A stretch of DNA of 37,978 bases from a virus, in the UHGV virus genome UHGV-0283905, one strand, 5' to 3'. Below, piece after piece: positions 3,926-37,978 of this stretch. A program made the position numbers and the translations under genes. Positions within the stretch are counted from its first letter, which is position 1. Each line of letters begins with the position of its first letter. Below the pieces are notes generated by a model, which was not told where the DNA came from, searched no databases, and worked only from the letters and a program-made list of their open reading frames with translations.

Positions 3926-3988
3926 TCACCCATAAGGTAACAAAAATCAAGGATAGTTACCTATGGGGTGCATTTACCTGTTGGGTAA
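3926..3988. promoter_or_regulatory. OR-like operator cluster: three TTACC-N5-GGTAA-type dyad sites between the divergent Cro-like and repressor genes
   Basis: TCACCcataaGGTAA 3926..3940, TTACCtatggGGTGC 3957..3971 (one half degenerate), TTACCtgttgGGTAA 3974..3988. Confidence 0.6.
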
Positions 3989-4043: not shown

Positions 4044-4628
4044 ATGAAAAGTATCCAGGACGTCCGCAGGCAAAATCTCAACGACTTGATCGACCGTGAA
4101 TTCAATGGTGTTCAGACGCGGATGGCAGAAAAACTTGGAACTCAGGCAAATCTGGTAAACCGCTGGGCTCTTGGCAAGAAGGTTATCGGCGACCAGGTTG
4201 CACGAAAAATTGAAGCTGCCGCCAATAAACCCCGTAACTGGCTTGATATTGATCGTTCGCTTTCTCAGGAGGGTTTTCAGCCTGTCGGACCAAGCGACAT
4301 TGGTCAACTGGCGGCTCACAACCTGGAACGCTGGATGAGCGAAAGCCGCGACCTTTCAACACAGGGAAAACTTCACCGCGCATCCGGCGTAGCCCAGGTG
4401 ACAATCAGCCGCCTGTTAAACAATGAGGTCAGCGTTTCCATTTCCACCCTGGAGAATGTTGCATCCGCATTCGGGCGTCATGGCTATGAATTACTGATTC
4501 ACCCGCACGACCCTGCGACCATCAACTATGATCGCTCGCGCTACGCATTGTTACCCGAAACCGAGAAAGCAAAGATCGAAAGTTACATTGAATTTGTCAT
4601 CAACCAGAACGAAAAAAGCAAACAATAA
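4044..4628 (+). CDS. candidate immunity repressor, dual HTH (XRE-type), no peptidase S24 domain
   Basis: 194 aa; two HTH-like segments (about residues 20-45 and 115-140); no recognisable Ser/Lys autocleavage motifs; occupies the cI position opposite the Cro-like gene. Confidence 0.6.
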   Translation: MKSIQDVRRQNLNDLIDREFNGVQTRMAEKLGTQANLVNRWALGKKVIGDQVARKIEAAANKPRNWLDIDRSLSQEGFQPVGPSDIGQLAAHNLERWMSESRDLSTQGKLHRASGVAQVTISRLLNNEVSVSISTLENVASAFGRHGYELLIHPHDPATINYDRSRYALLPETEKAKIESYIEFVINQNEKSKQ

Positions 4629-4650
4629 AACCATAGTTTTCAGTAAGTAA

Positions 4651-4673
4651 GCCGCCTCATGGCGGCTTTTTTA
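4651..4673 (+). terminator. intrinsic terminator downstream of the repressor gene
   Basis: GCCGCC-tcat-GGCGGC hairpin followed by TTTTTTATT. Confidence 0.7.
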
Positions 4674-4685
4674 TTGCCAGATAGA

Positions 4686-4762
4686 TTACCTTACGGGTAA
4701 TTTTTTTAACTCATATCTATTGACACCAAACCAAATAAGCATAATTATTACCCCAACGGTAA
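4686..4762. promoter_or_regulatory. OL-like operators: two dyad sites upstream of the early-left operon
   Basis: TTACCttacgGGTAA 4686..4700 and TTACCccaacGGTAA 4748..4762, between the repressor terminator and the first early-left ORF. Confidence 0.55.
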
Positions 4763-14746: not shown

Positions 14747-14767
14747 TAGCAAACAAATTATTTGCTA
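14747..14767. promoter_or_regulatory. inverted repeat TAGCAAA-N7-TTTGCTA abutting the LexA box
   Basis: Read directly; second palindrome in the same promoter region. Confidence 0.35.
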
Positions 14768-14783
14768 CTGTATAAATATACAG
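14768..14783. promoter_or_regulatory. LexA (SOS) box CTGTATAAATATACAG
   Basis: Fits the enterobacterial CTGT-N8-ACAG consensus with AT-rich centre; 22 bp upstream of the RBS of the 85-aa gene. Confidence 0.75.
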
Positions 14784-14805
14784 TTATTGCATGGAGAAGA
14801 TTAAG

Positions 14806-15063
14806 ATGCAGCAGTATCACTATCCACTGGAAGAGGGATTTACCGAAAGGATTCACACGCCGGGAGGCGTCAGGTCACTGGTGGAGGGATCGCACTTGAT
14901 GAAATTACTCCGGGATCTCGATAAGGATGGATTTAATGTCGATGGCCCACTTGCCGAACTGACTGCACTGATTAACTACGTCACCAGCTCACAGATGTCT
15001 ATGCGGGATCTGCAAACACATCTCGACTATTGTGCCGAACAATTACGAAAACAAACCAGATAA
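14806..15063 (+). CDS. small SOS-controlled protein, candidate antirepressor (85 aa)
   Basis: ATG 14806 preferred (GGAGAAG 6 nt upstream; table start 14791); paralogous to the C-terminal domain of the Bro-N protein. Confidence 0.55.
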   Translation: MQQYHYPLEEGFTERIHTPGGVRSLVEGSHLMKLLRDLDKDGFNVDGPLAELTALINYVTSSQMSMRDLQTHLDYCAEQLRKQTR

Positions 15064-15094
15064 GGTTTGCAATTACCAAGTGGAGTGCTTATAT

Positions 15095-15109
15095 TTACCT
15101 TTGAGGTAA
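15095..15109. promoter_or_regulatory. dyad site TTACCtttgaGGTAA
   Basis: Exact motif, flanked by inverted GGAGTGC / GCACTCC. Confidence 0.45.
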
Positions 15110-17074: not shown

Positions 17075-17096
17075 AAACAAGGCCGCGAAAGCGGCC
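17073..17096 (-). terminator. hairpin GGCCGC-gaaa-GCGGCC with minus-strand U-run (bidirectional-like terminator)
   Basis: Minus-strand RNA reads hairpin then UUGUUUUU; the palindrome GTGACATGTCAC lies 1 nt away. Confidence 0.6.
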
Positions 17097-17097
17097 T

Positions 17098-17109
17098 GTG
17101 ACATGTCAC
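17098..17109. promoter_or_regulatory. 12-bp perfect palindrome GTGACATGTCAC (copy 1 of 3)
   Basis: Overlaps the stop codon of the 98-aa membrane protein gene; adjacent to terminator hairpin. Confidence 0.5.
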
Positions 17110-17402
17110 GCTCTTTTTCTGAATGATAGCCATTCGAAAAATGATGACATTCCACCGCAGACAATAGCAAAGATGATCCCACCAAAGAAGAGAAGGCCAG
17201 CCTGCCACCACTCCCACCGCCATACATCCACAGCGCCAACCATACCAACAATAGCTCCAACAAATGGAATATAGCTCACGATGAAAGCAATGGGGGCTGC
17301 AATTATCCAGTGCAATCCCCACCATGATTCAAGCCCAGCCATAATTGCTGCCAACTGAAAAAGACCAACGACGATATAAACAATGAATCCTATAGCTTGC
17401 AT
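17106..17402 (-). CDS. small multi-pass membrane protein
   Basis: 98 aa, 3-4 hydrophobic segments, Trp-rich loops; last gene of this minus-strand block. Confidence 0.5.
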   Translation of the reverse strand: MQAIGFIVYIVVGLFQLAAIMAGLESWWGLHWIIAAPIAFIVSYIPFVGAIVGMVGAVDVWRWEWWQAGLLFFGGIIFAIVCGGMSSFFEWLSFRKRA

Positions 17403-17597: not shown

Positions 17598-20072
17598 TTA
17601 TTGCGGAGTGACATCCTGAGGTCGCCACCAGTATGTCTGGTTAAACTCTTTCTTCGAACGTTGCTCCATTTTACGCAAATAGCCTGGTGAAAAATACTCC
17701 TGCATCTGGTTAAAAATCATGTGATCGAGAGCCGCCTTCAAGTACCAGAGATTCGCACCTGGCATCAAACCTTTCCCCAGCTTCACCAGATCACCACCAG
17801 TCTGCTCACTCTTCCCTTCCACAGCATTTAACGGTATGCCCTGAGCAATCTTCACTACGTCATCAACCAGACCAGCTACCGGGCCAAGCATCGACGCCAG
17901 CGCGCCGCTTCCGTACCTAGTGTGATCTGACAATAAAAAGTCACCGTAAAGGCCAAGACCACCACCTTTCAGTAGAGCACCAAGCCAAAATTTAGCAGCA
18001 TCTTCTCCTGTCATCTCGCGAGGATTACGACCAGACGCAAGGTCGTTAAGTTGCTGCGACAAAGCGCCAAGAATGGTCGTACTGGCAATAAACGTCGCAA
18101 TATATGCCGCACGCCCACCAGCAGACGGCATACCCATAGCGCGTGACCAGTGACGCATAACCACCGAGATAGGGAACGATTTAAACAGGAAAACACTTCT
18201 CGTTAATTCACCTTTCCATGTTCCACGCTGAATACCAGAACCGGTTATCAGTTGCTCACGTGCTCCTGGTGTAATAACAGCCATATCAACTTCTTCAGTT
18301 ACGGCACCGAGCAGTTTACGCATTGCCTCAAATTTCACGCGTTCAGGCTCACCAAGATGTTTAACTGCTGAATCAGGGATACGCATAATGCTTTCCGGTG
18401 TCAGCATCGTATTATTACCGTTCCCCCAGTCCTCCTGTTGCGCCAGCTTCCATACGCTCCAGTCTGTGTCAGTAATCCCTTTGCTTTTCAGGATACGAAA
18501 ATCAGAGTCATCGAGGCTACGAAGGTCTGGTGTCCGTGACACTACTTCTCCCAGGCTTCCCATCATGGTTACGCCATAGGCGCGCTTGTGCGCATCTGAC
18601 CATGCTGTAAGCCCACTGGCACGCATTACCGCCGTTGCCGCCCAACGAGACACTGACGGCCCCATATTATCCATCGCCCAGCGGTTAACGCTGCCAAGTA
18701 GAGATTCCATCGCCAGACCAGCGCGGCGCGCCCGCGCAAGTTCTGTACGGTTCGTTGGGTCCATAGCTTCAAGCTGGTTGCGGAATAACTGGTTCATTGG
18801 AAGGTTGGTCACCTTCGCAGACAGATACATGGTTCCAAGATCAGAGAACGATGATAGCAACGCAGATCCGAGTCTGCTGGCAACCAGCCAGTTGCGGATA
18901 TTGTCAGACCATCGCGCGATGTGCGGATTCGCTACAGGCTGTGTCTTTCCGGAAATAAAGTTGTACAGATTCTCTGTGTTGTTCGCCAGCCGCTCGACTT
19001 TACCGGTTTTACTCGGGTTAGCTGTTGCCGTTTCTGCCTTCACCTGATCAAGAAGAGAGCGGAAAACATGATCGGGGTTTGGGCCATATGTTTCCACCAG
19101 TGCAATATCTTTACTGATACCTTCCAGGTGACCGACCATGATTTCCCATAGAGAGCGATCGCCATAAAGTTGCTGATATTGCAGATAGGAATCTGCATCT
19201 TTGAAATGTATCTGTCGTGATGCATTACCACGGTTAGCACGTGCGCCGGAAATTCGCATTCCGGTATCAGTAAGCTTATTCAGCCCACCAGTAGCGATCG
19301 TGTTATAAGCCTCTCCAAGAAATGCAGACAACTCGGCATCGTTCATCAGTTGTCCATCGGCTCGGATATAATATTTGCGATCCAGCTTACCTATAACATC
19401 GCTAACCCACTTATCCTTTGATACCGCCCCAACCTTTTCCATAGAATGATGTTGAGGGAACCCCCAGTTTTCGAGATAGCCAATGTCCCCACCAGCATCA
19501 TTAAACCGGCGGCGCAGTAGATCTGTCACTTCTCTCCACGCCTTAGCACCTTTTCTTGCTTTAGCATTGCCAGTATTTTGCCCTCGCATTTCATATACCA
19601 GGTCACGTACGCCCGCTTCATCTTCAAACAGACCAAAAAAGCGAGGATCAACTGCTTCGAATGCCTCCTGCAATTGACTCAATGCATAATCACGAGTGGC
19701 TTTTGTTCTGGACTCAACAGAGAGGAAATTCGATTTACCGTCTGCATTAAAAGCAATAGTACGGTTAAGAGCGCCAAGTTTCCCATCAGCCCCTTGATAG
19801 CTATTGATAAATTTATCCAATCTCTGACGTGCGGCTATAGTGAGGGCCACACGACGTTTCTTTAATGCCGCTTCTCGCTGTAATTCTTCAGATGCCAATT
19901 GTGCTGCACGATATAGCCGCTCTGATTCGGAAAGTTGTCTCCACGACATCGGGTCATCACGAGCAATGGAGCGCATATTTCGATAAATGCGGTCTTCAAT
20001 GCTCTGTATTTCTCGCGCCGTTAACGTGCGCTGCGCCGCCTGCTGGACCGCTTGTATACATTCCTGTCTCAT
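17598..20072 (-). CDS. large internal virion / ejection protein
   Basis: 824 aa, position after the other internal virion genes in a T7-like order; hydrophobic Gly-rich segment near the C-terminus. Confidence 0.55.
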   Translation of the reverse strand: MRQECIQAVQQAAQRTLTAREIQSIEDRIYRNMRSIARDDPMSWRQLSESERLYRAAQLASEELQREAALKKRRVALTIAARQRLDKFINSYQGADGKLGALNRTIAFNADGKSNFLSVESRTKATRDYALSQLQEAFEAVDPRFFGLFEDEAGVRDLVYEMRGQNTGNAKARKGAKAWREVTDLLRRRFNDAGGDIGYLENWGFPQHHSMEKVGAVSKDKWVSDVIGKLDRKYYIRADGQLMNDAELSAFLGEAYNTIATGGLNKLTDTGMRISGARANRGNASRQIHFKDADSYLQYQQLYGDRSLWEIMVGHLEGISKDIALVETYGPNPDHVFRSLLDQVKAETATANPSKTGKVERLANNTENLYNFISGKTQPVANPHIARWSDNIRNWLVASRLGSALLSSFSDLGTMYLSAKVTNLPMNQLFRNQLEAMDPTNRTELARARRAGLAMESLLGSVNRWAMDNMGPSVSRWAATAVMRASGLTAWSDAHKRAYGVTMMGSLGEVVSRTPDLRSLDDSDFRILKSKGITDTDWSVWKLAQQEDWGNGNNTMLTPESIMRIPDSAVKHLGEPERVKFEAMRKLLGAVTEEVDMAVITPGAREQLITGSGIQRGTWKGELTRSVFLFKSFPISVVMRHWSRAMGMPSAGGRAAYIATFIASTTILGALSQQLNDLASGRNPREMTGEDAAKFWLGALLKGGGLGLYGDFLLSDHTRYGSGALASMLGPVAGLVDDVVKIAQGIPLNAVEGKSEQTGGDLVKLGKGLMPGANLWYLKAALDHMIFNQMQEYFSPGYLRKMEQRSKKEFNQTYWWRPQDVTPQ

Positions 20073-31679: not shown

Positions 31680-33355
31680 TGTGATTGCCCACCCTGACCA
31701 CTAACTGCATTCGCCATAGCTGACAAAACACTCGGATCCGAAGTTTTAGCTTCGCTTAGCGTCTTGGCCCCCTGTGCCGCCGCCATCCCCATCGCCATCA
31801 TTTGTTGCTGCTGTTGTTGCTGTGCCCGTTGCTGGCGAGCCTGCTCAACCTGTTCCTGCGGAACAATGACGGTTGGAGACACTCCGGACATATCAGCGAA
31901 TGCATCGATCGCCTGATCAACGTTGAGTTTGTCGAGAGCTTCTGGTTTCGCTTGCGCAAGTTGACCAATGAAGTTGACCGTAGACGCCAGACTGGACAGG
32001 CCGATAGACTTCTGCGCCTGAGCCATGACGGAAATGTATTCGACCTTCAGGGGCATACCTTCCATCGCGTCAGGCGGTGGCGGCAGCATGTTTTTACGCA
32101 CCATCATCGAGAAAGCGCGGTCAATGAGAGGATTAAGACATTCGTCGTTCAGACGCTCCAGAACCGGCCCCAACATCAGAAGTTTTTCTTCTTTCATTTC
32201 GATCACTGCTTCAACAGGCATCGAGCGGGTATTGATGTTCTGCAACATCATGAACAGATCGACAAAGTAGGCGCTGTTAATGATTTGACGAGTGTCCTGA
32301 ATGTCTGCTACCAGATCTGCTGTACTGGGGTTAACCAGATAAGCAGGCCTGAAGCCATCCTGACCAGTAATCTGATCGATATACGTGATGTCACCAGGAA
32401 GAAGGGAGGCGCGCTGATTCTTGAGGGAAGTCGGAGCAACCATCGGCGGATTGGTGGCTTTATCAATCAACTGCGACTTGCGCTCCTGGAGAAGTTGCAA
32501 TGCCTTAACAGGTCCAAGCGCCAGCATACCCGGGCATGATGATCCATAAACATCTTCGCCATTAACTTCCCAGCGCGGAGCCATAATTGGAAACTCATCA
32601 AATCCGGACTCACGCAACAACTTGTCGTTATCGCCACCAACCTCGTAATAAACCGATTTGAATGGCTTGTTCTTGCTATCCAGCTTCGATGTATCGCGGT
32701 CAATGTTCGGGTAAACCGAATGCATCACTTCAATCCACTTCTCGTAGGTGCCGCTTTCCCACATGCTTTTTACGGATTCGCTGACGTTATTTAGTCCGAA
32801 CTCCTGAACAAGCTGACGAACAGTCATAGAGAACTTGCGAAAACAGGTGTCCACACTGCCACGAGGTGAGTTAGCCAGGTAGTAACTTCCTATCGGGAAT
32901 GGCATTGTACGAATGATGTCCTCGTCATCCTCCAGCACCGCCATTGCGCCAGTGCTGTATGTGCCGAGGCTTCCGTATAACTGCGGCAGCGACTGATAGA
33001 GATTCGACTTATTGAACATATCGTTCATGCGGTTCTGCACCGCCTCAAGCCACAACTTAACAGGGCCATAATCCATCATTTCAGGATCTGGCGTAGCCAG
33101 GCGAAACCACGGACGCGCGGGGCTTGTGATGCCTGACATCATGCCGCTGGCGAGAGTGCGCGCCGCCATAGTCCCGGTCGAATCAATAATGCGTGTATTG
33201 CGTCGATCGTTACGGTTGACCTCAGAAGTCAGAAAGCGGGAACCACGCGGGTTGATGTAATCACTCAACTCGCGCCAGTGCGGCTCGAACGACTGACGCT
33301 CGCTTTCAAGTTGTGCGAACTGTTTGTTCAATCGCTCTTTAGTTGTTTCCGCCAT
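31676..33355 (-). CDS. portal protein (T7 gp8-like head-to-tail connector)
   Basis: 559 aa; C-terminal Gln-rich tail QQRAQQQQQQQMMAMGMAAAQG resembles the T7 gp8 C-terminus from memory. Confidence 0.8.
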   Translation of the reverse strand: MAETTKERLNKQFAQLESERQSFEPHWRELSDYINPRGSRFLTSEVNRNDRRNTRIIDSTGTMAARTLASGMMSGITSPARPWFRLATPDPEMMDYGPVKLWLEAVQNRMNDMFNKSNLYQSLPQLYGSLGTYSTGAMAVLEDDEDIIRTMPFPIGSYYLANSPRGSVDTCFRKFSMTVRQLVQEFGLNNVSESVKSMWESGTYEKWIEVMHSVYPNIDRDTSKLDSKNKPFKSVYYEVGGDNDKLLRESGFDEFPIMAPRWEVNGEDVYGSSCPGMLALGPVKALQLLQERKSQLIDKATNPPMVAPTSLKNQRASLLPGDITYIDQITGQDGFRPAYLVNPSTADLVADIQDTRQIINSAYFVDLFMMLQNINTRSMPVEAVIEMKEEKLLMLGPVLERLNDECLNPLIDRAFSMMVRKNMLPPPPDAMEGMPLKVEYISVMAQAQKSIGLSSLASTVNFIGQLAQAKPEALDKLNVDQAIDAFADMSGVSPTVIVPQEQVEQARQQRAQQQQQQQMMAMGMAAAQGAKTLSEAKTSDPSVLSAMANAVSGQGGQSQ

Positions 33356-33369
33356 TTCAATGACTCCGG

Positions 33370-33576
33370 TTACTGACCAAGCAGCGTTTTACCGCTGGTA
33401 TTAGCGGTTGATGTGTCGCCCTGAGAACCGGTAAGCAGCGTAGAACTACGACCAGCAGCAGCGCGACGGCGACGAGTTTCTTCGTAGCGGGCATCAACAA
33501 CGGCGGCATCCTGCTCCTGTGGTGCTGCCTGAACTTCTGGTGTTGCAGGCACTGACGGTGAGCTACCCATGCACAT
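33370..33576 (-). CDS. hypothetical small protein upstream of portal
   Basis: 68 aa, GGAG 8 nt upstream of ATG 33576; overlapping 79-aa frame 33357..33596 judged less likely. Confidence 0.35.
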   Translation of the reverse strand: MCMGSSPSVPATPEVQAAPQEQDAAVVDARYEETRRRRAAAGRSSTLLTGSQGDTSTANTSGKTLLGQ

Positions 33577-33666
33577 ATCAATGACTCCGTACGCAATTAA
33601 ATTATTACCAATTTAACCACATATGATTTATTTATCGTAGACAGTTGACATTTAATGCACGAATTA

Positions 33667-33681
33667 TTACCTTTCAGGTAA
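33667..33681. promoter_or_regulatory. dyad site TTACCtttcaGGTAA; possible -35 TTGACA at 33644..33649
   Basis: Exact motif at the start of the non-coding region leading to the tRNA. Confidence 0.45.
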
Positions 33682-34003
33682 GTAAATGGTTCATTCCGGT
33701 TATTAACCTGACTGGCTTGTCGTTAAATTGAACAGGTGGAGTGAGCTTTTATTTTGAGCAGTACGGCGTATGGCACATGCGCCGATAGCGGTCTGGATAC
33801 GTTTAAGGGGCACCCTCCCTTGCTCGGGCAAACGAACCAGGTAGCCGGAATGTGCAAGTCGAGCGGTTTTATTCCGCGCACGGGGATTCACCATCCCGGC
33901 GATTCGGTGTGACGCCTCGGAAGAGACGAGGGTACAACGATGAGAGCATTTATGGAGCCGCGACAAAGTGTGGCGCCTTAACAGGCTAAGTGCTCTCAGC
34001 GTT

Positions 34004-34080
34004 GTGGCATTAGCTCAGTTGGACAGAGCAACCGCCTTCTAAGCGGTTGGTCGCAGGTTCGAATCCTGCATGCCACGCCA
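34004..34080 (+). tRNA. tRNA-Arg (anticodon UCU), CCA encoded
   Basis: Hand-folded cloverleaf: acceptor GTGGCAT/ATGCCAC, D-arm GCTC-AGTTGGACA-GAGC, anticodon arm ACCGC-CTTCTAA-GCGGT, T-arm GCAGG-TTCGAAT-CCTGC, discriminator G, CCA. Confidence 0.85.
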
Positions 34081-34123
34081 GAATCACGCCTAAGGACCGT
34101 GATGCCAGAAGTTCCAGGTGCTT

Positions 34124-34165
34124 GGCGGTGATGGTTTCCCTTGAAGGACTATCACCGCCCTTTTT
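34124..34165 (+). terminator. terminator-like hairpin after the tRNA
   Basis: GGCGGTGAT ... ATCACCGCC stem followed by CTTTTT. Confidence 0.55.
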
Positions 34166-34243
34166 ACAGCAGGACGCCATTGCGATGACTTCATGCTGTA
34201 AACCAGTACAGCCACGGAAGGCATAACTCATTGCTTCCAGTTC

Positions 34244-34267
34244 GCCCGGTTCGCCGGGCATTTTTTT
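34244..34267 (+). terminator. intrinsic-terminator-like hairpin in the leader of the DUF2829 gene (attenuator candidate)
   Basis: GCCCGG-ttcg-CCGGGC plus TTTTTTT, ending 12 nt before ATG 34279. Confidence 0.6.
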
Positions 34268-34278
34268 AAGGTGAGATT

Positions 34279-34575
34279 ATGAGCGAAACATCAACAGTAT
34301 CTTTCTCCACTGCTTTGTCATCACTCAAAGATGGTAAGCGCATTGCACGTGCCGGATGGAATGGCAAAGGCATGTATCTGCAACTGGTTAAGCCACCGCA
34401 ATCGGCCACTCCGAACGAGTGGCGATTTGACGTTACATGCGGTGACGAGTATACATTTGTACCTGGCGTTAAACTTCTACCGTGGATTGGGATGAAAACT
34501 GCTGACGGTTGCTTTGTACCGTGGCTGGCATCTCAAACCGATCTGCTATCTGATGACTGGATTGTAATTCAATAA
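34279..34575 (+). CDS. DUF2829-family protein (Tad2-like, candidate anti-Thoeris sponge)
   Basis: 98 aa; N-terminal FSTALSSLKDGKRIARAGWNGKGMYLQL and C-terminal VPWLASQTDLLSDDWIVI fit my recollection of the DUF2829 pattern; opposite orientation to flanking structural genes, own terminator. Confidence 0.55.
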   Translation: MSETSTVSFSTALSSLKDGKRIARAGWNGKGMYLQLVKPPQSATPNEWRFDVTCGDEYTFVPGVKLLPWIGMKTADGCFVPWLASQTDLLSDDWIVIQ

Positions 34576-34579
34576 CACC

Positions 34580-34591
34580 GTGACATGTCAC
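34580..34591. promoter_or_regulatory. 12-bp perfect palindrome GTGACATGTCAC (copy 2 of 3)
   Basis: 4 nt upstream of terminator hairpin 34596..34622. Confidence 0.5.
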
Positions 34592-34595
34592 AAAC

Positions 34596-34622
34596 AGCCA
34601 GCCTATGAGCTGGCTTTGTTTT
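34596..34622 (+). terminator. intrinsic terminator after the DUF2829 gene
   Basis: AGCCAGC-ctatga-GCTGGCT plus TTGTTTT. Confidence 0.7.
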
Positions 34623-34665
34623 ATCCTCACCAGAGGATATCAACGACATTATCCCCACCAGCGGA

Positions 34666-36141
34666 TTAAGCATAGGGATCGTAATCTGTAATGGCCTTGC
34701 CTTGCTGGTTCTGCTGACCTGGAATTCGCAGACGCTTCGACACAGGGAAAGCAAACGTCAGCAATAGCGCATCGCCTTTACCAGGAGAACGCCCAAGCCG
34801 CTCCTTGATATCTTCCTTCGGTTCGATAACGATTTTACCGTCCACTCGAACTTTGTACTCTGCCGCCGACAGGTCGTCCGCTGTTTCCTGGTCATCAAGC
34901 ATGCCGCCCAGCCTCAGCCATGTCTTGCATGAGTTGAACATCTCCCCGCGCTTATTGAGCATCTGCGGGTCAGTAGACGCGCCACCGAACGGAACAAGTT
35001 GCCATGTACGACCCCAGCCATCACCGATTGACTTCAGACCAGTTCCGTAACCGAAGTCGATGAACACTGCGTCAGCCTGGTACTGGTCTTCAAAGTCAGC
35101 GATACGCTTCGCCATAATCAGATCGTCAGTGGTCTTGTTGCCGGTCCACAGCACCTTACTGTGCAGCCCCTGCCGCAGATATATCACCGCGTCATCAACA
35201 CCGGAGTATGCCGGGTCAACGCCGATTATCACCGGAGCATGTGCAACCTGCGCAGCGGTGACCACCCGTTTCATTGCCTCGTCAGTAAGTCCGGTAGGGA
35301 TAAACTGCAATTCAGATGCATCCGGGAATATGCCGCGCACACGGATTTTAACGAAGTCGCTATCTTCCCCGTAGTCATCAACCCATTTCTGCAACTGCTG
35401 TTTGTTAGTGCCTTCCACCGTCCGGCTGTCAATCTGCGCAGTTTTCCAGCGGTGTTTGTATTTGCGGAAACATTCGCGAAAACGCCCGGTATTACGTGTA
35501 GGGTTTCCGAACGCCACCCAGATAATCTCAGTGTCTTCGTCCGTAAGCGCACCCTCAGCAACTTCCCACACCAGATCCGCAATGTTCGACGCTTCATCGA
35601 ATACCACGATGATGCGTTTGCGCTCGTTGTGTAGTCCGGCGAATGCCTCAGTGTTGTGCTCAGACCAGGGGATTGCGTCAGCTCGCCACCGCTTGTCGTG
35701 CCCAGGATCATTGCTGTACATCGCAGTAGCGGTACAGGTAAACCAGTCTTTCGTGATAGCAAGGTTCGACCACTTGATAATTTCCGGCCAGGTCTTCGTT
35801 CGTAGCTGGTTGTCGGTGTTGGCGGTCACCACGACCTTACAATCCTCGCAAGTGGACATGCCCCAGTTGATCAGCATTGAGATGAATGCGGATTTACCAA
35901 TACCGTGACCCGAAGCACGTGCCAGCATAAGCGGCTGATAGCGCGTCTCTGGATTCTGCAGGTGATCACGTATCTCTCGGAACGCATCAGCCTGCCACTG
36001 ACGTGGGCCGGTAGCATGTGCCAGTTCAGTCCCCTCTTCCCCCCACGGGAACGCATAGAGGGCATAGCCAAGCGGATCGTGAGTGAACCCTGCAATATCC
36101 TCGATCAACTGCTCTTCAGGAGATAACGCTGTATCTGTCAC
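34666..36141 (-). CDS. terminase large subunit
   Basis: 491 aa; Walker A-like GHGIGKSAF; ATPase then nuclease layout; start overlaps small-subunit stop (ATGA). Confidence 0.85.
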   Translation of the reverse strand: MTDTALSPEEQLIEDIAGFTHDPLGYALYAFPWGEEGTELAHATGPRQWQADAFREIRDHLQNPETRYQPLMLARASGHGIGKSAFISMLINWGMSTCEDCKVVVTANTDNQLRTKTWPEIIKWSNLAITKDWFTCTATAMYSNDPGHDKRWRADAIPWSEHNTEAFAGLHNERKRIIVVFDEASNIADLVWEVAEGALTDEDTEIIWVAFGNPTRNTGRFRECFRKYKHRWKTAQIDSRTVEGTNKQQLQKWVDDYGEDSDFVKIRVRGIFPDASELQFIPTGLTDEAMKRVVTAAQVAHAPVIIGVDPAYSGVDDAVIYLRQGLHSKVLWTGNKTTDDLIMAKRIADFEDQYQADAVFIDFGYGTGLKSIGDGWGRTWQLVPFGGASTDPQMLNKRGEMFNSCKTWLRLGGMLDDQETADDLSAAEYKVRVDGKIVIEPKEDIKERLGRSPGKGDALLLTFAFPVSKRLRIPGQQNQQGKAITDYDPYA

Positions 36142-36734
36142 TGATTACCATCCTGACGTTCTTTGAGTCGCTTCCTGGCTGCTGCTATGCGATCAGCAAT
36201 TGTCACATTCACATTAACATCCAGACGTTCTTTGAACGCGTTGACATCAACATGCTTACCAATCAGCTCAAGGTTCTTCACCTTGTCAGGCCATTTAATT
36301 TTTTTGAGGATTGTCTCTATCGAATCCTCGTTCATGTTCATGATGGTCGATGACAGATCAAAGCCACTAAGCGTAGTGCGCCAGATTTTCGGCCACTCAC
36401 GGATTGGTTTAAGGCTCCCATCGTCGTTGAGGATGTCGATCACGTCCATCTGGTCGATCTGCACCAGGCGCATGAGAACGTAATCAGCACTGACGCGCAT
36501 TCGTTTGTTGCGCTCCTCCATCAACTCGGCAATCCGTTTTTGAATGCGTTCATCGCGCATCATGACACTGGCTTTAACTGCCGCTGTATTTGGGGAGAAT
36601 CCTGCGTTAATCGCTGCCTGAGTCTGGTTTTCAGGCGTTTTGATGTATGACTGGCAATAAGCCTCCTGCATTGCTGTTAGTGGCTTAAATTGCGTTGATT
36701 TGCGTTTATAGGTTTTAGGTTCAGCAGGCATCAT
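36138..36734 (-). CDS. terminase small subunit
   Basis: Start at ATG 36734 or 36731 (MMPAEPKTYK...), GGTGG upstream; the table's longer ORF (to 36812) would read through a terminator hairpin and is treated as spurious. Confidence 0.6.
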   Translation of the reverse strand: MMPAEPKTYKRKSTQFKPLTAMQEAYCQSYIKTPENQTQAAINAGFSPNTAAVKASVMMRDERIQKRIAELMEERNKRMRVSADYVLMRLVQIDQMDVIDILNDDGSLKPIREWPKIWRTTLSGFDLSSTIMNMNEDSIETILKKIKWPDKVKNLELIGKHVDVNAFKERLDVNVNVTIADRIAAARKRLKERQDGNQ

Positions 36735-36741
36735 AACCACC

Positions 36742-36770
36742 GTGGTAATAGTTACCGTTGTGGTAATAGT
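36742..36770. repeat. direct repeat GTGGTAATAGT x2 just upstream of the terminase small-subunit start
   Basis: Copies at 36742..36752 and 36760..36770; contains an inverted GGTAA-N3-TTACC arrangement. Confidence 0.4.
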
Positions 36771-36775
36771 ACCAT

Positions 36776-36803
36776 ACAAAATAAAGCCGCCATAGTTGGC
36801 GGC
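36776..36803 (-). terminator. intrinsic terminator between the late-leader genes and terminase (tR'-like)
   Basis: GCCGCC-aactat-GGCGGC hairpin then UUUAUUUUGU on the minus-strand transcript. Confidence 0.65.
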
Positions 36804-36844
36804 AGTATTCAAAACCCATCAAATTCATCATGCATAATCTACTC

Positions 36845-36856
36845 GTGACATGTCAC
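36845..36856. promoter_or_regulatory. 12-bp perfect palindrome GTGACATGTCAC (copy 3 of 3)
   Basis: Overlaps the stop of the Cys-rich gene, about 41 nt upstream (in transcription direction) of terminator 36776..36803. Confidence 0.5.
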
Positions 36857-37194
36857 ACTATTAATTTCGTTTCATGCCAGCCTTTAGTCACCCAGCATTG
36901 CGAGTCACCATTACACGGGCATGAATTAACTGGAACTCTCTCGCCGCACTTACCGCAACATTTTCTGCTGATCGATTTTATACGCCCGCGCACGCGTGCA
37001 TCATCCTGGCGGATCAGTAACGCTATATACTCACCAAATTCGTAAGGCGCACGCCCGGGGCGACGCGTGGCACAGTTACGCTCCAGCATTTCAATTTCCT
37101 GAGCATCCAGCACAATCTCCAGCTTACGTACACCGGATGCAGCTTGTCTGGCTCTCTGAGCGGCTTTGCGCTCTGCTGCTGATTTAGCCATCAA
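36853..37194 (-). CDS. Cys-rich small basic protein (putative zinc-binding regulator; late-activator candidate)
   Basis: 113 aa; basic N-terminus; C-terminal cysteine cluster CCGKCGERVPVNSCPCNGDSQC; immediately upstream of the palindrome/terminator/terminase arrangement. Confidence 0.45.
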   Translation of the reverse strand: MMAKSAAERKAAQRARQAASGVRKLEIVLDAQEIEMLERNCATRRPGRAPYEFGEYIALLIRQDDARVRGRIKSISRKCCGKCGERVPVNSCPCNGDSQCWVTKGWHETKLIV

Positions 37195-37465
37195 TATTTA
37201 CCTTTATCGCGAACACCTTTACCGGTTTATCGCCGAAGTGCGGATGTGTGATTGTCTTGATTTCATATCCGTCATACGGAATATCAATTCTGCGGCTGGA
37301 ATCGTCGCGCTTCGGATATCCCTTTGTGATAATCAGACGGTCATACTTACGGTTAACGAGTCGCTTTTTCCAGTAGTCATTACACAAGCGATACTCTTCC
37401 GTTTTCTCTCCGCGAATCATGGCATTGAAGTATTCACCTTTTACGGCAAGTTGCAGGTTAGCCAT
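37184..37465 (-). CDS. ASCH/DUF3850-like small protein (tentative)
   Basis: Start at ATG 37465 (TAATG coupling to upstream stop; table start 37486); family call is a low-confidence pattern match. Confidence 0.4.
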   Translation of the reverse strand: MANLQLAVKGEYFNAMIRGEKTEEYRLCNDYWKKRLVNRKYDRLIITKGYPKRDDSSRRIDIPYDGYEIKTITHPHFGDKPVKVFAIKVNIDG

Positions 37466-37725
37466 TACCGCACCTCCAGTCTCCATACCGCCTGACCAAT
37501 CCGGCTGGCATGGTTATCTTTAGATACTGTTCCGTCTTTAGCAATCTCCATAAGAATTTTGCGCAAATCTGCCGAGCGCCATTCTTCATCAGGAAATTCC
37601 TTCTCCATTGCCAACCGCAGATTCCAGGTTGCTATCGTGAATGGATATTCCCCGCCGAGAGCTTTCTCTTGCAAGGCAGCACGGGAACGCATCACCTGCA
37701 AAACCTTCTCTTTTACATCCATCAT
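37465..37725 (-). CDS. hypothetical small protein
   Basis: 86 aa, 4-nt overlap with the upstream gene. Confidence 0.4.
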   Translation of the reverse strand: MMDVKEKVLQVMRSRAALQEKALGGEYPFTIATWNLRLAMEKEFPDEEWRSADLRKILMEIAKDGTVSKDNHASRIGQAVWRLEVR

Positions 37726-37934
37726 TTTGCCTCCTGCGGCGGTTCTGGTAGCTGCATCCAGTGGGTTACCTCTTTGAGATACAGGTCTTCGCCATCACCG
37801 TCATCCCAAGTGGGATTGCCATCATTAAACCAGTCGCCATATACGCCGACCTGAGTGTTGGGGATGTTTGGTGGGTAGTTGTTTTTAAAGTCAGCTGCTA
37901 ACACATAGCATTGTCGCTCTCCCATTTCTGGCAT
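37722..37934 (-). CDS. DUF551-like small phage protein
   Basis: C-terminal WMQLPEPPQ matches the DUF551 C-terminal signature (W.PLPEPP); in-frame TAA upstream of a second candidate ATG at 37961 shows the ORF is complete. Confidence 0.5.
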   Translation of the reverse strand: MPEMGERQCYVLAADFKNNYPPNIPNTQVGVYGDWFNDGNPTWDDGDGEDLYLKEVTHWMQLPEPPQEAK

Positions 37935-37978
37935 CTGCTCACTACAGCTTATCCAACCATCCGGAGTTACCGGAGAAT

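What the first reader, a model, noticed from the sequence alone, without database searches (positions are those of the whole stretch)
36734..36860. Terminase is preceded by terminator, direct repeats and palindrome; the ORF-track N-terminus of the small subunit looks spurious
The table's 224-aa small-subunit ORF would have to be translated through a hairpin plus U-run (36776..36803) and through GTGGTAATAGT x2. Its first 26 residues are a low-complexity Thr/Val run. An ATG pair at 36734/36731 with GGTGG upstream gives a 198-aa protein. The arrangement suggests the late structural transcript starts or is antiterminated here.
Basis: seen in the sequence. Interest (0 to 1): 0.45.

Follow-up and report, generated by a model that had tools for sequence, protein, structure and literature searches.

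The report
Repressor-controlled start of phage terminase operon
This is the ordinary early/late gene junction of an epsilon15-like temperate phage: a terminator, then a likely promoter covered by two binding sites for the phage's own repressor, then the true terminase start codon 27 codons downstream of the ORF-track (longest-ORF) start.

Summary

- **Small-terminase start.** The 224-aa ORF is an artefact. The conserved start is the second ATG (36731, 197 aa). It is invariant in 29 distinct relatives, while the extension carries 1- and 2-bp indels and in-frame stops in some of them.
- **Direct repeats.** "GTGGTAATAGT x2" is really two tandem 17-bp inverted-repeat operators (ATTACC-N5-GGTAAT) for the phage repressor, Rep. 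The window holds 16 such sites against about 1 expected. One homologous site is already annotated as a repressor site in the epsilon15 GenBank record, along with the terminator and a short terS.
- **Promoter.** Immediately upstream of the first operator is an invariant TGnTAnTAT, a probable extended -10 promoter. It sits in the same register as other operator-overlapped promoters in the window. The terminase transcript therefore most likely starts here under direct Rep control. Nothing supports antitermination.
- **Palindrome.** GTGACATGTCAC belongs to the upstream regulator gene, whose TGA stop lies inside it in many species. It occurs three times per genome. Its function is unknown.

Overall this is an ordinary, largely already-annotated module. 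The practical point is a start-codon error seen in RefSeq and several GenBank records.

The parts
36853..37191 (-). Last gene of the early-right operon: a 112-aa gp49-like protein (PHROG 536, labelled 'transcriptional regulator'). It has a basic N-terminal region and a Cys-rich C-terminus.
   Evidence: ORF. phrog_536 E = 8.5e-55. No Pfam or NCBIfam match. Homologous to epsilon15 gp49, N15 gp46 and ZF40 gp22.
36845..36856 (.). 12-bp perfect palindrome GTGACATGTCAC containing the TGA stop (36855..36853) of the regulator gene. Probably the cognate site of that regulator.
   Evidence: The gene-plus-palindrome linkage holds in 22 of 38 species loci, and in 19 of them the stop codon lies inside the palindrome; the background rate is 0.004 per equivalent stretch. 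As RNA it folds weakly: -2.9 kcal/mol, z = -0.3.
36809..36840 (-). Deletion scar: the last few codons and the TGA of a 70-aa ORF that is intact in many close relatives. That TGA overlaps the TTG at 36812 that opens the spurious 224-aa ORF.
   Evidence: Relatives such as L016 carry 186 extra bp and the ORF MPKIRYDLEDM...DEFDGL* in this position.
36778..36803 (-). Intrinsic terminator closing the early-right operon: stem-loop 36803..36786 and T-run 36785..36778.
   Evidence: Conserved across E. coli, Salmonella, Enterobacter, Klebsiella and Citrobacter relatives while the upstream spacer varies. Annotated as a rho-independent terminator at the homologous place in epsilon15.
36766..36774 (-). Candidate extended -10 promoter element TGgTACTAT: TG at 36774..36773 and hexamer at 36771..36766. 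Predicted transcription start near 36759 (inferred).
   Evidence: TG, T1, A2, T4, A5 and T6 are invariant in 29 of 29 distinct upstream sequences, while the 'n' and hexamer position 3 vary. The element is retained in BUCT554 and Kp4865-1, where the upstream context is unrelated. The -10/operator register matches promoters at 4720-4748, 33638-33667 and 15067-15095.
36751..36767 (.). Operator O1, ATTACCACAACGGTAAC: a Rep repressor site with one mismatch to the consensus.
   Evidence: Homologous to the epsilon15 feature 'protein_bind repressor' at 12-27. Half-sites are invariant and the spacer varies across relatives.
36733..36749 (.). Operator O2, ATTACCACGGTGGTTAT: a second, weaker Rep site covering the Shine-Dalgarno sequence and the first ATG.
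   Evidence: The epsilon15 counterpart at 29-45 has 2 mismatches. It is degenerate in the Klebsiella phages.
36737..36741 (-). Shine-Dalgarno-like GGTGG, 5 nt before the conserved ATG.
   Evidence: Read directly from the sequence. Mostly GGTGG in relatives, with variants GGCGG, GGTAG and GGTGT.
36138..36731 (-). Small terminase subunit (TerS), true CDS, 197 aa, starting MPAEPKTYKRK.
   Evidence: Pfam Terminase_2 at 104 bits, starting at residue 45 of the 224-aa ORF, which is residue 18 of the 197-aa form. SF6 G1P (PDB 3ZQP) aligns from residue 13. The ATG is invariant. TL-2011b and Tyrion annotate 594 nt and epsilon15 annotates 597 nt.
34666..36141 (-). Large terminase subunit. Its GTG start overlaps the terS stop (GTGA).
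   Evidence: Annotated as the large terminase in relatives.
34580..34591 (.). Second exact copy of the palindrome. It lies between the terL stop and a convergent Tad2-like gene, 4 nt from the hairpin at 34596-34615.
   Evidence: The homologous copy in epsilon15 is at 2142-2153.
17098..17109 (.). Third exact copy of the palindrome. It contains the TGA stop of the ORF at 17106..17402 and directly abuts the terminator at 17097..17080.
   Evidence: The homologous copy in epsilon15 is at 19517-19528, just before an annotated terminator.
4044..4628 (+). Rep, the immunity repressor presumed to bind O1 and O2.
   Evidence: Matches the SPC32H repressor, PDB 5D50, at E = 3.5e-42 over residues 1-190. Pfam HTH_3. 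Flanked by operator copies at 3973, 4685 and 4747.

Best explanation
The stretch is the junction between the early-right operon and the packaging and structural genes of an epsilon15-like (Uetakevirus) temperate phage. All of it is read on the minus strand.

The early operon ends with a small regulator gene whose TGA stop lies inside a 12-bp palindrome. Next comes a scar of a deleted small ORF, then a strong intrinsic terminator.

Directly after the terminator's T-run lies an extended -10 promoter, TGgTACTAT. Its last two bases are the first two bases of operator O1. A second operator, O2, follows one base later and covers the ribosome-binding site. Both are 17-bp inverted repeats (ATTACC-N5-GGTAAT) recognised by the phage's Rep repressor.

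In a lysogen, Rep on O1/O2 would occlude the -10 and the transcription start, keeping terS-terL silent. When Rep is inactivated, RNA polymerase would start near 36759. The roughly 28-nt leader carries GGTGG, and translation begins at ATG 36731, giving a 197-aa TerS.

The 27 extra codons of the ORF-track protein are just the terminator, promoter and operators read in frame. The Thr/Val run is ATTACC and GGTAAC translated.

Status of each step:
- Shown here: the sequence elements, their over-representation, their conservation pattern, and the conserved start codon.
- Inferred: Rep binding, by homology and by the epsilon15 annotation.
- Inferred: promoter activity and the position of the transcription start.
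For: Start codon:
- The second ATG is invariant in 29 distinct upstream sequences from E. coli, Salmonella, Enterobacter, Klebsiella, Citrobacter and other hosts. The first ATG is lacking or mutated in many.
- Indels of 1 bp (L184, L186) and 2 bp (BUCT554) lie inside the supposed extension.
- In-frame stops lie 9 codons upstream (Klebsiella ST512 phage) and 13 codons upstream (BUCT554). Epsilon15 and Tyrion have no start codon at the long-form position.
- Pfam Terminase_2 and the SF6 G1P structure align only from residues 13-18 of the short form. Distant homologues begin there too.

Operators:
- 16 motif hits against 0.97 expected in the window, and 18 against 1.12 in epsilon15.
- All 10 hits with at most 1 mismatch fall between long ORFs.
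- The epsilon15 record annotates the homologous site as a repressor site, and also annotates the terminator.
- A Rep homologue is encoded in the window.
- Half-sites are invariant while the spacer varies.

Promoter:
- TGnTAnTAT is invariant in 29 of 29 sequences, with variation exactly at the two positions least constrained in such promoters.
- It is retained where the upstream DNA is unrelated and there is no terminator.
- Three consensus-scan promoters elsewhere in the window end their -10 hexamer on the first two bases of an operator, as this one does.

Terminator: with conservation shown.
Against: - No -35 element accompanies the proposed promoter, and the consensus scan did not report it.
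- There are no transcript-start data. I could not obtain the epsilon15 or SPC32H papers.
- Part of the conservation of TGnTAnTAT could reflect shared ancestry, because homology in BUCT554 and Kp4865-1 extends about 5 nt upstream of the TG.
- Rep binding to these two sites has not been tested here. O2 is degenerate in the Klebsiella phages, so it may be dispensable.
- An operator pair just downstream of a terminator could equally act as a roadblock for read-through transcription.
Confidence: 0.7

Rival explanations
1. No promoter lies here. Terminase and late genes are transcribed by read-through or antitermination of the terminator from the early-right operon, in lambda style. The two operators only act as a Rep roadblock in the lysogen.
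For: All genes from the immunity region through terS share one orientation. The proposed promoter lacks a -35. A regulator gene sits immediately upstream of the terminator.
Against: No Q- or N-like family was found among the early-right ORFs held in the window. The gp49-like gene is not next to late genes in ZF40 or N15, and ZF40 has its own annotated Q-like protein. TGnTAnTAT shows a promoter-like conservation pattern, and it persists in BUCT554 and Kp4865-1, which have no terminator upstream of terS.
Confidence: 0.2
2. The repeats are the packaging (pac) recognition site bound by the small terminase, as in SPP1 and SF6, where pac spans the 5' end of the terS gene.
For: TerS belongs to the same Pfam family as SPP1/SF6 G1P. 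From memory, not checked here: epsilon15 DNA is reported as circularly permuted, so a pac site must exist somewhere.
Against: The motif is not unique. Ten copies with at most 1 mismatch are spread over intergenic regions, including several around the repressor gene. Epsilon15 annotates them as repressor sites. A pac site elsewhere in or near terS is not excluded, but the repeats themselves do not point to one.
Confidence: 0.04
3. The palindrome's GTGACA half acts as the -35 of a late promoter (GTGACA-18-CATGAT) whose short transcript stops at the hairpin unless modified. This would be a Q/pR'/tR'-like module served by the gp49-like protein.
For: Promoter-like match of 9/12 at 36856..36827. The order regulator gene, site, terminator, late genes resembles lambda Q-pR'-tR' (established knowledge).
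Against: The -10 match and the spacing are not conserved. Epsilon15-type relatives have a different, shorter spacer. Many E. coli relatives have a 70-aa ORF in this position, and other relatives have a LexA-box promoter and gene. The palindrome accompanies the gene even where no late genes follow.
Confidence: 0.05
4. The 224-aa ORF from TTG 36812 is the real small terminase.
For: The frame is open. RefSeq/PGAP and several GenBank records annotate it.
Against: Frame-breaking indels and in-frame stops in relatives. No start codon at that place in epsilon15 or Tyrion. No Shine-Dalgarno sequence before the TTG. The extension runs through a hairpin of -16 kcal/mol.
Confidence: 0.02

Closest known systems
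Salmonella phage epsilon15 (NC_004775): junction of gp49 and the terminase small subunit
   Same: Same gene order, same hairpin, same operator and same palindrome. The record annotates a rho-independent terminator at 39646-39672, a repressor-binding site at 12-27 and a 198-aa terS starting at the homologous ATG.
   Different: The window's DNA differs by about 20-25% in this stretch. It has an extra ATG codon and a scar of a deleted ORF. The second operator, the extended -10 and the three palindromes are not annotated in epsilon15.
Rep/Ant/LexA immunity system of Salmonella phage SPC32H (repressor structure PDB 5D50)
   Same: The window encodes a Rep homologue at E = 3.5e-42. It also has a perfect LexA box at 14766-14785 in front of a small ant-like gene. 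As described for SPC32H (PMC9638917, plus my recollection of Kim and Ryu 2013), Rep is inactivated by an antirepressor rather than cleaved.
   Different: Binding of Rep to the terS-proximal sites has not been tested here, and I could not read the primary papers. The operator set in this window was derived by motif search.
Lambda-type immunity operators overlapping promoters (OR/PR)
   Same: Tandem palindromic 17-bp operators overlap the -10 and the start site of a promoter, with conserved half-sites and free spacers.
   Different: Here the immunity repressor has sites scattered through the genome, including in front of packaging, tail-fibre and accessory genes. That implies direct repression of late functions rather than control only through an early cascade with Q.
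Lambda Q-pR'-tR' late control
   Same: A regulator gene is followed by a cis site and a terminator just before the late genes.
   Different: No Q-family protein was found. No conserved promoter lies between the site and the terminator. The site travels with the gene in phages where late genes are elsewhere.

Membership tests
Small terminase, Pfam Terminase_2 (PF03592; SPP1/SF6 G1P type) | Profile match above the curated threshold | tested here: met
   104 bits against a cut-off of 26.1, covering residues 45-200 of the 224-aa ORF. phrog_51 E = 7e-58.
Small terminase, Pfam Terminase_2 (PF03592; SPP1/SF6 G1P type) | N-terminal helix-turn-helix domain near the N-terminus, as in solved G1P structures | tested here: met
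   3ZQP residues 20-99 align with residues 13-92 of the 197-aa form. The long form would add 27 unmatched residues.
Small terminase, Pfam Terminase_2 (PF03592; SPP1/SF6 G1P type) | Gene immediately upstream of, and coupled to, the large terminase gene | tested here: met
   The terS stop and the terL GTG overlap as GTGA at 36141..36138.
Small terminase, Pfam Terminase_2 (PF03592; SPP1/SF6 G1P type) | Binds a pac site and activates the large subunit | not testable with these tools
   Needs biochemistry.
Intrinsic (rho-independent) terminator | G+C-rich hairpin directly followed by a T-run | tested here: met
   7-bp stem with 6 G-C pairs, a 4-nt loop and TTTATTTT. Energy -16.2 kcal/mol, z = -4.7.
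Intrinsic (rho-independent) terminator | Placed at the end of a transcription unit and conserved among relatives | tested here: met
   It follows whichever gene is last in the early operon, and the stem is unchanged apart from A-T to G-T at the loop-closing (7th) stem pair. No compensatory changes were seen, so conservation is the only comparative support.
Intrinsic (rho-independent) terminator | Stops RNA polymerase in vivo or in vitro | not testable with these tools
   Needs 3'-end mapping or a read-through reporter.
Operators of the epsilon15/SPC32H-type Rep repressor | 17-bp inverted repeat ATTACC-N5-GGTAAT | tested here: met
   O1 and O2 each have 1 mismatch.
Operators of the epsilon15/SPC32H-type Rep repressor | Cognate repressor gene in the same genome | tested here: met
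   The ORF at 4044-4628 matches PDB 5D50 at E = 3.5e-42.
Operators of the epsilon15/SPC32H-type Rep repressor | Multiple intergenic copies, including around the repressor gene; homologous to sites annotated in epsilon15 | tested here: met
   16 hits against 0.97 expected. Epsilon15 annotates 8 sites, one of them at the terS position.
Operators of the epsilon15/SPC32H-type Rep repressor | Bound by Rep | not testable with these tools
   Needs a gel-shift or footprint. The primary literature is not held.
Extended -10 sigma-70 promoter | TG one base upstream of a TAnnnT hexamer | tested here: met
   TGgTACTAT at 36774..36766, invariant at TG, T1, A2, T4, A5 and T6 in 29 of 29 sequences.
Extended -10 sigma-70 promoter | Mapped transcription start 6-8 nt downstream | not testable with these tools
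   No transcript data are available.
Lambda-like Q antitermination module | Q-family antiterminator encoded just upstream | tested here: not met
   The gp49-like protein has no Pfam or NCBIfam match. No Q- or N-like PHROG appears among the early-right ORFs. About 1-2 kb of the phage lies outside the window.
Lambda-like Q antitermination module | Conserved constitutive promoter between the regulator gene and the terminator | tested here: not met
   Only a 9/12 match, and it is not conserved in position or sequence.
pac site of SPP1/SF6-type phages | Sequence unique in the genome, at the 5' end of terS | tested here: not met
   The repeat motif recurs at 10 or more other places.

The most novel reading that the evidence does not exclude
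The 12-bp palindrome may be the binding site of the uncharacterised gp49-like protein. That family has no Pfam domain and no structural match. It forms a mobile gene-plus-site cassette in which the gene's own TGA stop is built into the site.

In epsilon15-like phages the three copies mark the ends of three transcription units, each next to an intrinsic terminator. The protein could therefore be a DNA-bound factor that modulates termination or read-through at operon boundaries, including the early-to-late boundary in front of the terminase genes. That would be a mode of phage transcription control different from N, Q or put.
Probability: 0.12. Interest if true: 0.6.

Novelty: already known. Interest (0 to 1): 0.22.

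Why it matters
The main value is annotation hygiene.
- The locus matches at ≥90% identity (nearly all ≥95%) in 502 of 5426 complete E. coli genomes.
- In the RefSeq genome inspected, and in the phiV10, PAS61, PAT1 and SPN1S phage records, it carries the 27-codon-too-long TerS.

Placing a Rep-controlled promoter in front of terS also supports a broader picture for this phage group. The immunity repressor appears to silence packaging and other late functions directly, at many scattered operators. That is useful to anyone engineering phiV10/epsilon15-type phages or reading prophage transcriptomes.

The palindrome and regulator cassette is a small, apparently undescribed lead. A full-text search for its sequence found nothing.

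Tried and rejected
- **Literature.** The epsilon15 genome paper and both SPC32H papers are not held. The ZX5 paper says nothing about this region. Full-text searches for the palindrome and for operator or late-gene terms found nothing useful.
- **Viral-contig scans.** Scans with TerS and with the regulator alignment returned only near-identical E. coli prophages. They helped with micro-variation but not with distant comparison. The species-level genome scan and tblastn against phage records gave the diversity needed.
- **The gp49-like protein.** There was no Pfam, NCBIfam or PDB sequence match. The large protein search found 725 clusters, the 120 listed being 'hypothetical' or 'phage protein' and essentially all without a Pfam domain. 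The AlphaFold model had mean pLDDT 70, and Foldseek against the PDB gave no match below E = 1. My impression of a ribbon-helix-helix or RepB/CopB-like N-terminus therefore remains an unverified recollection.
- **Rfam.** Only the tRNA was found in 33300-37978.
- **RNA structure of the operator region.** The predicted hairpin is not better than shuffles (z = -0.9). I therefore read the operator region as a DNA site, not an RNA element.
- **Promoter upstream of the terminator.** I considered the GTGACA-18-CATGAT match and rejected it as a conserved promoter.
- **CRP-like reading of TGTGA...TCACA.** Rejected because the spacing is wrong. This rests on reading the sequence, not on a tool result.
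Full report
**What the window is.** The window is a temperate podovirus of the epsilon15/phiV10 group (genus Uetakevirus). The 1.2 kb around the finding is 99% identical to Escherichia phage PAS61 and 97-98% identical to phiV10, TL-2011b and the O157 typing phages 9 and 10. The intergenic stretch plus the start of terS is 75-86% identical to Salmonella phages epsilon15, SPN1S and PAT1 and to Enterobacter phage Tyrion. All genes concerned lie on the minus strand. Their order is: a 112-aa gene (36853..37191), the intergenic region of the finding, terS, then terL (34666..36141).

**Checking the observation.**
- The hairpin GCCGCCAACTATGGCGGC (36803..36786) with TTTATTTT is picked up by the terminator scan. 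It folds at -16.2 kcal/mol with z = -4.7.
- GTGGTAATAGT occurs twice, 18 bp apart.
- GTGACATGTCAC lies at 36845-36856.
- ATGATG at 36734/36731 follows GGTGG.
- The longest ORF starts at TTG 36812 and gives 224 aa.

**The N-terminal extension is not coding.** I collected 29 distinct versions of the 75 bp upstream of terS from phage records, viral contigs and one-genome-per-species prophages.
- The second ATG (36731) is present in all 29.
- The first ATG is found only in the E. coli group and BUCT554. It is changed to ATT or ACG in three close relatives.
- Indels of 1 bp (L184, L186) and 2 bp (BUCT554) lie inside the supposed extension.
- The Klebsiella ST512 phage has an in-frame TAA 9 codons upstream of the conserved ATG, and BUCT554 has a TAG 13 codons upstream. 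Epsilon15 and Tyrion have no start codon at the long-form position.
- The Terminase_2 profile begins at residue 45 of the long ORF. The SF6 G1P structure aligns from residue 13 of the short form. Distant homologues align from residue 15-18 onward, often within a few codons of their own starts.
- GGTGG lies 5 nt before the second ATG but only 2 nt before the first. There is no such sequence before the TTG.
- Annotators disagree. TL-2011b and Tyrion use 594 nt and epsilon15 uses 597 nt. phiV10, PAS61, PAT1, SPN1S and a RefSeq E. coli chromosome use the long form.
- The Thr/Val run is simply ATTACC and GGTAAC read in frame.

**What the direct repeats are.** The epsilon15 GenBank record annotates a rho-independent terminator at the homologous hairpin, and a "protein_bind: repressor" feature 12-27 immediately after it. 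It lists seven further repressor sites, clustered around the repressor gene and in front of several other genes. The annotated site is the palindrome ATTACCAAAACGGTAAT.
- Searching ATTACC-N5-GGTAAT with up to 2 mismatches gives 16 hits in the window against 0.97 expected, and 18 in epsilon15 against 1.12.
- Two of the window's hits are adjacent: O1 at 36751-36767 and O2 at 36733-36749.
- Across relatives the half-sites of O1 never change, while four of the five spacer positions do. That pattern fits a protein-binding palindrome.
- The window encodes the cognate repressor. ORF 4044-4628 matches the SPC32H repressor structure 5D50 at E = 3.5e-42. It is surrounded by further operator copies.
- According to PMC9638917, and to my recollection of Kim and Ryu 2013, this repressor binds palindromic sites as a tetramer. 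It is inactivated by a LexA-controlled antirepressor.
- The window has a perfect LexA box at 14766-14785 before a small ant-like ORF.

**A probable promoter.** The nine bases upstream of and overlapping O1 read TGgTACTAT.
- In the 29 sequences, T-G, then T-A, T and A-T are invariant. The base after TG (G/T/A) and the third hexamer base (C/T/G) vary. That is the constraint pattern of an extended -10 promoter.
- The element persists in BUCT554 and Kp4865-1, where the DNA further upstream is unrelated and there is no hairpin.
- Three promoters found by the consensus scan end their -10 hexamer on the first two bases of an operator, in the same register: TTGACA-17-AATTAT at 4720-4748, TAGACA-18-AATTAT at 33638-33667 and TTGCAA-17-TATATT at 15067-15095.
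- I therefore infer a Rep-occluded promoter with a start near 36759 and a leader of about 28 nt carrying O2 and the ribosome-binding site.
- Promoter activity is inferred, not shown. There is no -35, and there are no transcript data.
- The same layout (gene, terminator, operators plus promoter, next gene) occurs after the Rep gene itself: hairpin at 4649-4668, operators at 4685 and 4747, promoter at 4720-4748.

**Antitermination.** I found nothing to support it.
- The early-right ORFs in the window are replication, recombination and unknown-function families.
- The space between the palindrome and the hairpin is evolutionarily fluid.
  - Many E. coli relatives hold a 70-aa ORF there. The window retains only its last codons, and their TGA overlaps the spurious TTG start.
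  - Other relatives hold a LexA-box promoter and gene there.
- The weak promoter-like match at 36856..36827 is therefore not a conserved feature.

**The palindrome.** It belongs to the upstream gene rather than to the terminase.
- In 38 prophage loci from different species, with protein identity down to 35%, GTGAC-NN-GTCAC lies within -15 to +80 nt of the gene's stop in 22. In 19 of those the TGA stop is the TGA inside the palindrome. The background rate is 0.004 per equivalent stretch.
- The same holds in the myovirus ZF40 and in N15, where the downstream genes are unrelated to packaging.
- The window, epsilon15 and ZF40 each contain exactly three perfect copies.
- In the window and in epsilon15 the other two copies are at homologous places: just after terL, and at the stop of the last ORF of the structural operon. 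Each is beside a terminator hairpin.
- As RNA the palindrome folds poorly, so a DNA site for the encoded protein is the simplest reading.
- The protein has no family, structural or literature assignment that I could find. What it does is unexplained.

**Comparison with what is known, and verdict.** The terminator, one operator and the short terS are already in the public annotation of the genus's type phage. On its main points the finding is therefore already known, and the module is an ordinary repressor-controlled operon start. New here are four details:
- the second operator;
- the promoter call and its register;
- comparative proof that the long TerS is wrong, although RefSeq and several phage records annotate it (the locus is present in about 9% of complete E. 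coli genomes);
- the gene-linked palindrome.

I score interest low. The palindrome cassette is the only part that might repay an experiment.

Noticed in passing
window 36845-36856, 34580-34591, 17098-17109; L010 (epsilon15) 2142, 19517, 39612; L220 (ZF40) 5125, 7622, 14944: GTGACATGTCAC occurs exactly three times per genome in three phages. It is co-inherited with the gp49-like gene, whose TGA stop lies inside it in 19 of 38 species loci. The central dinucleotide varies by lineage: AT, CT, GC, TG or AG. The function is unknown.
   Followed up: partly
window 33638-34615, plus strand: A reverse-oriented accessory cassette lies between terL and the portal region. It consists of a promoter overlapped by an operator (33638-33682), tRNA-Arg(TCT) at 34004-34080, a Tad2-like Thoeris anti-defence gene at 34279-34575 (PF11195, E = 3e-24), and a terminator at 34596-34615.
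   Followed up: partly
window 14766-14785 and 14791-15063, plus strand: A perfect LexA box (TACTGTATAAATATACAGTT) lies directly before a 90-aa ORF. That ORF matches phrog_450 and, weakly, an anti-repressor PHROG. It is probably the Ant of a Rep/Ant/LexA switch.
   Followed up: partly
window 36809-36840; compare L016 1212-1423: The window has a 186-bp deletion relative to many E. coli relatives. It removes a 70-aa ORF (MPKIRYDLEDM...) between the palindrome and the terminator.
   Followed up: yes
L006 (BUCT554) 790-850; L007 (Klebsiella ST512 phage) 875-925; L181, L182, L187: In several relatives a LexA-box promoter and a small gene sit directly after the palindrome, between the regulator gene and terS. 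The palindrome ends 2-8 nt before the -35.
   Followed up: no
window 4649-4668 compared with 36786-36803: The terminator after the Rep gene (GCCGCCTCATGGCGGC) and the one before terS (GCCGCCAACTATGGCGGC) have nearly the same stem. Each is followed by operators and a promoter.
   Followed up: no
L219 (E. coli ECSC054 chromosome), features at 789-1463: RefSeq/PGAP annotates the 224-aa TerS (WP_113419320.1) on a stretch 100% identical to the window. The locus is present in 502 of 5426 complete E. coli genomes.
   Followed up: yes
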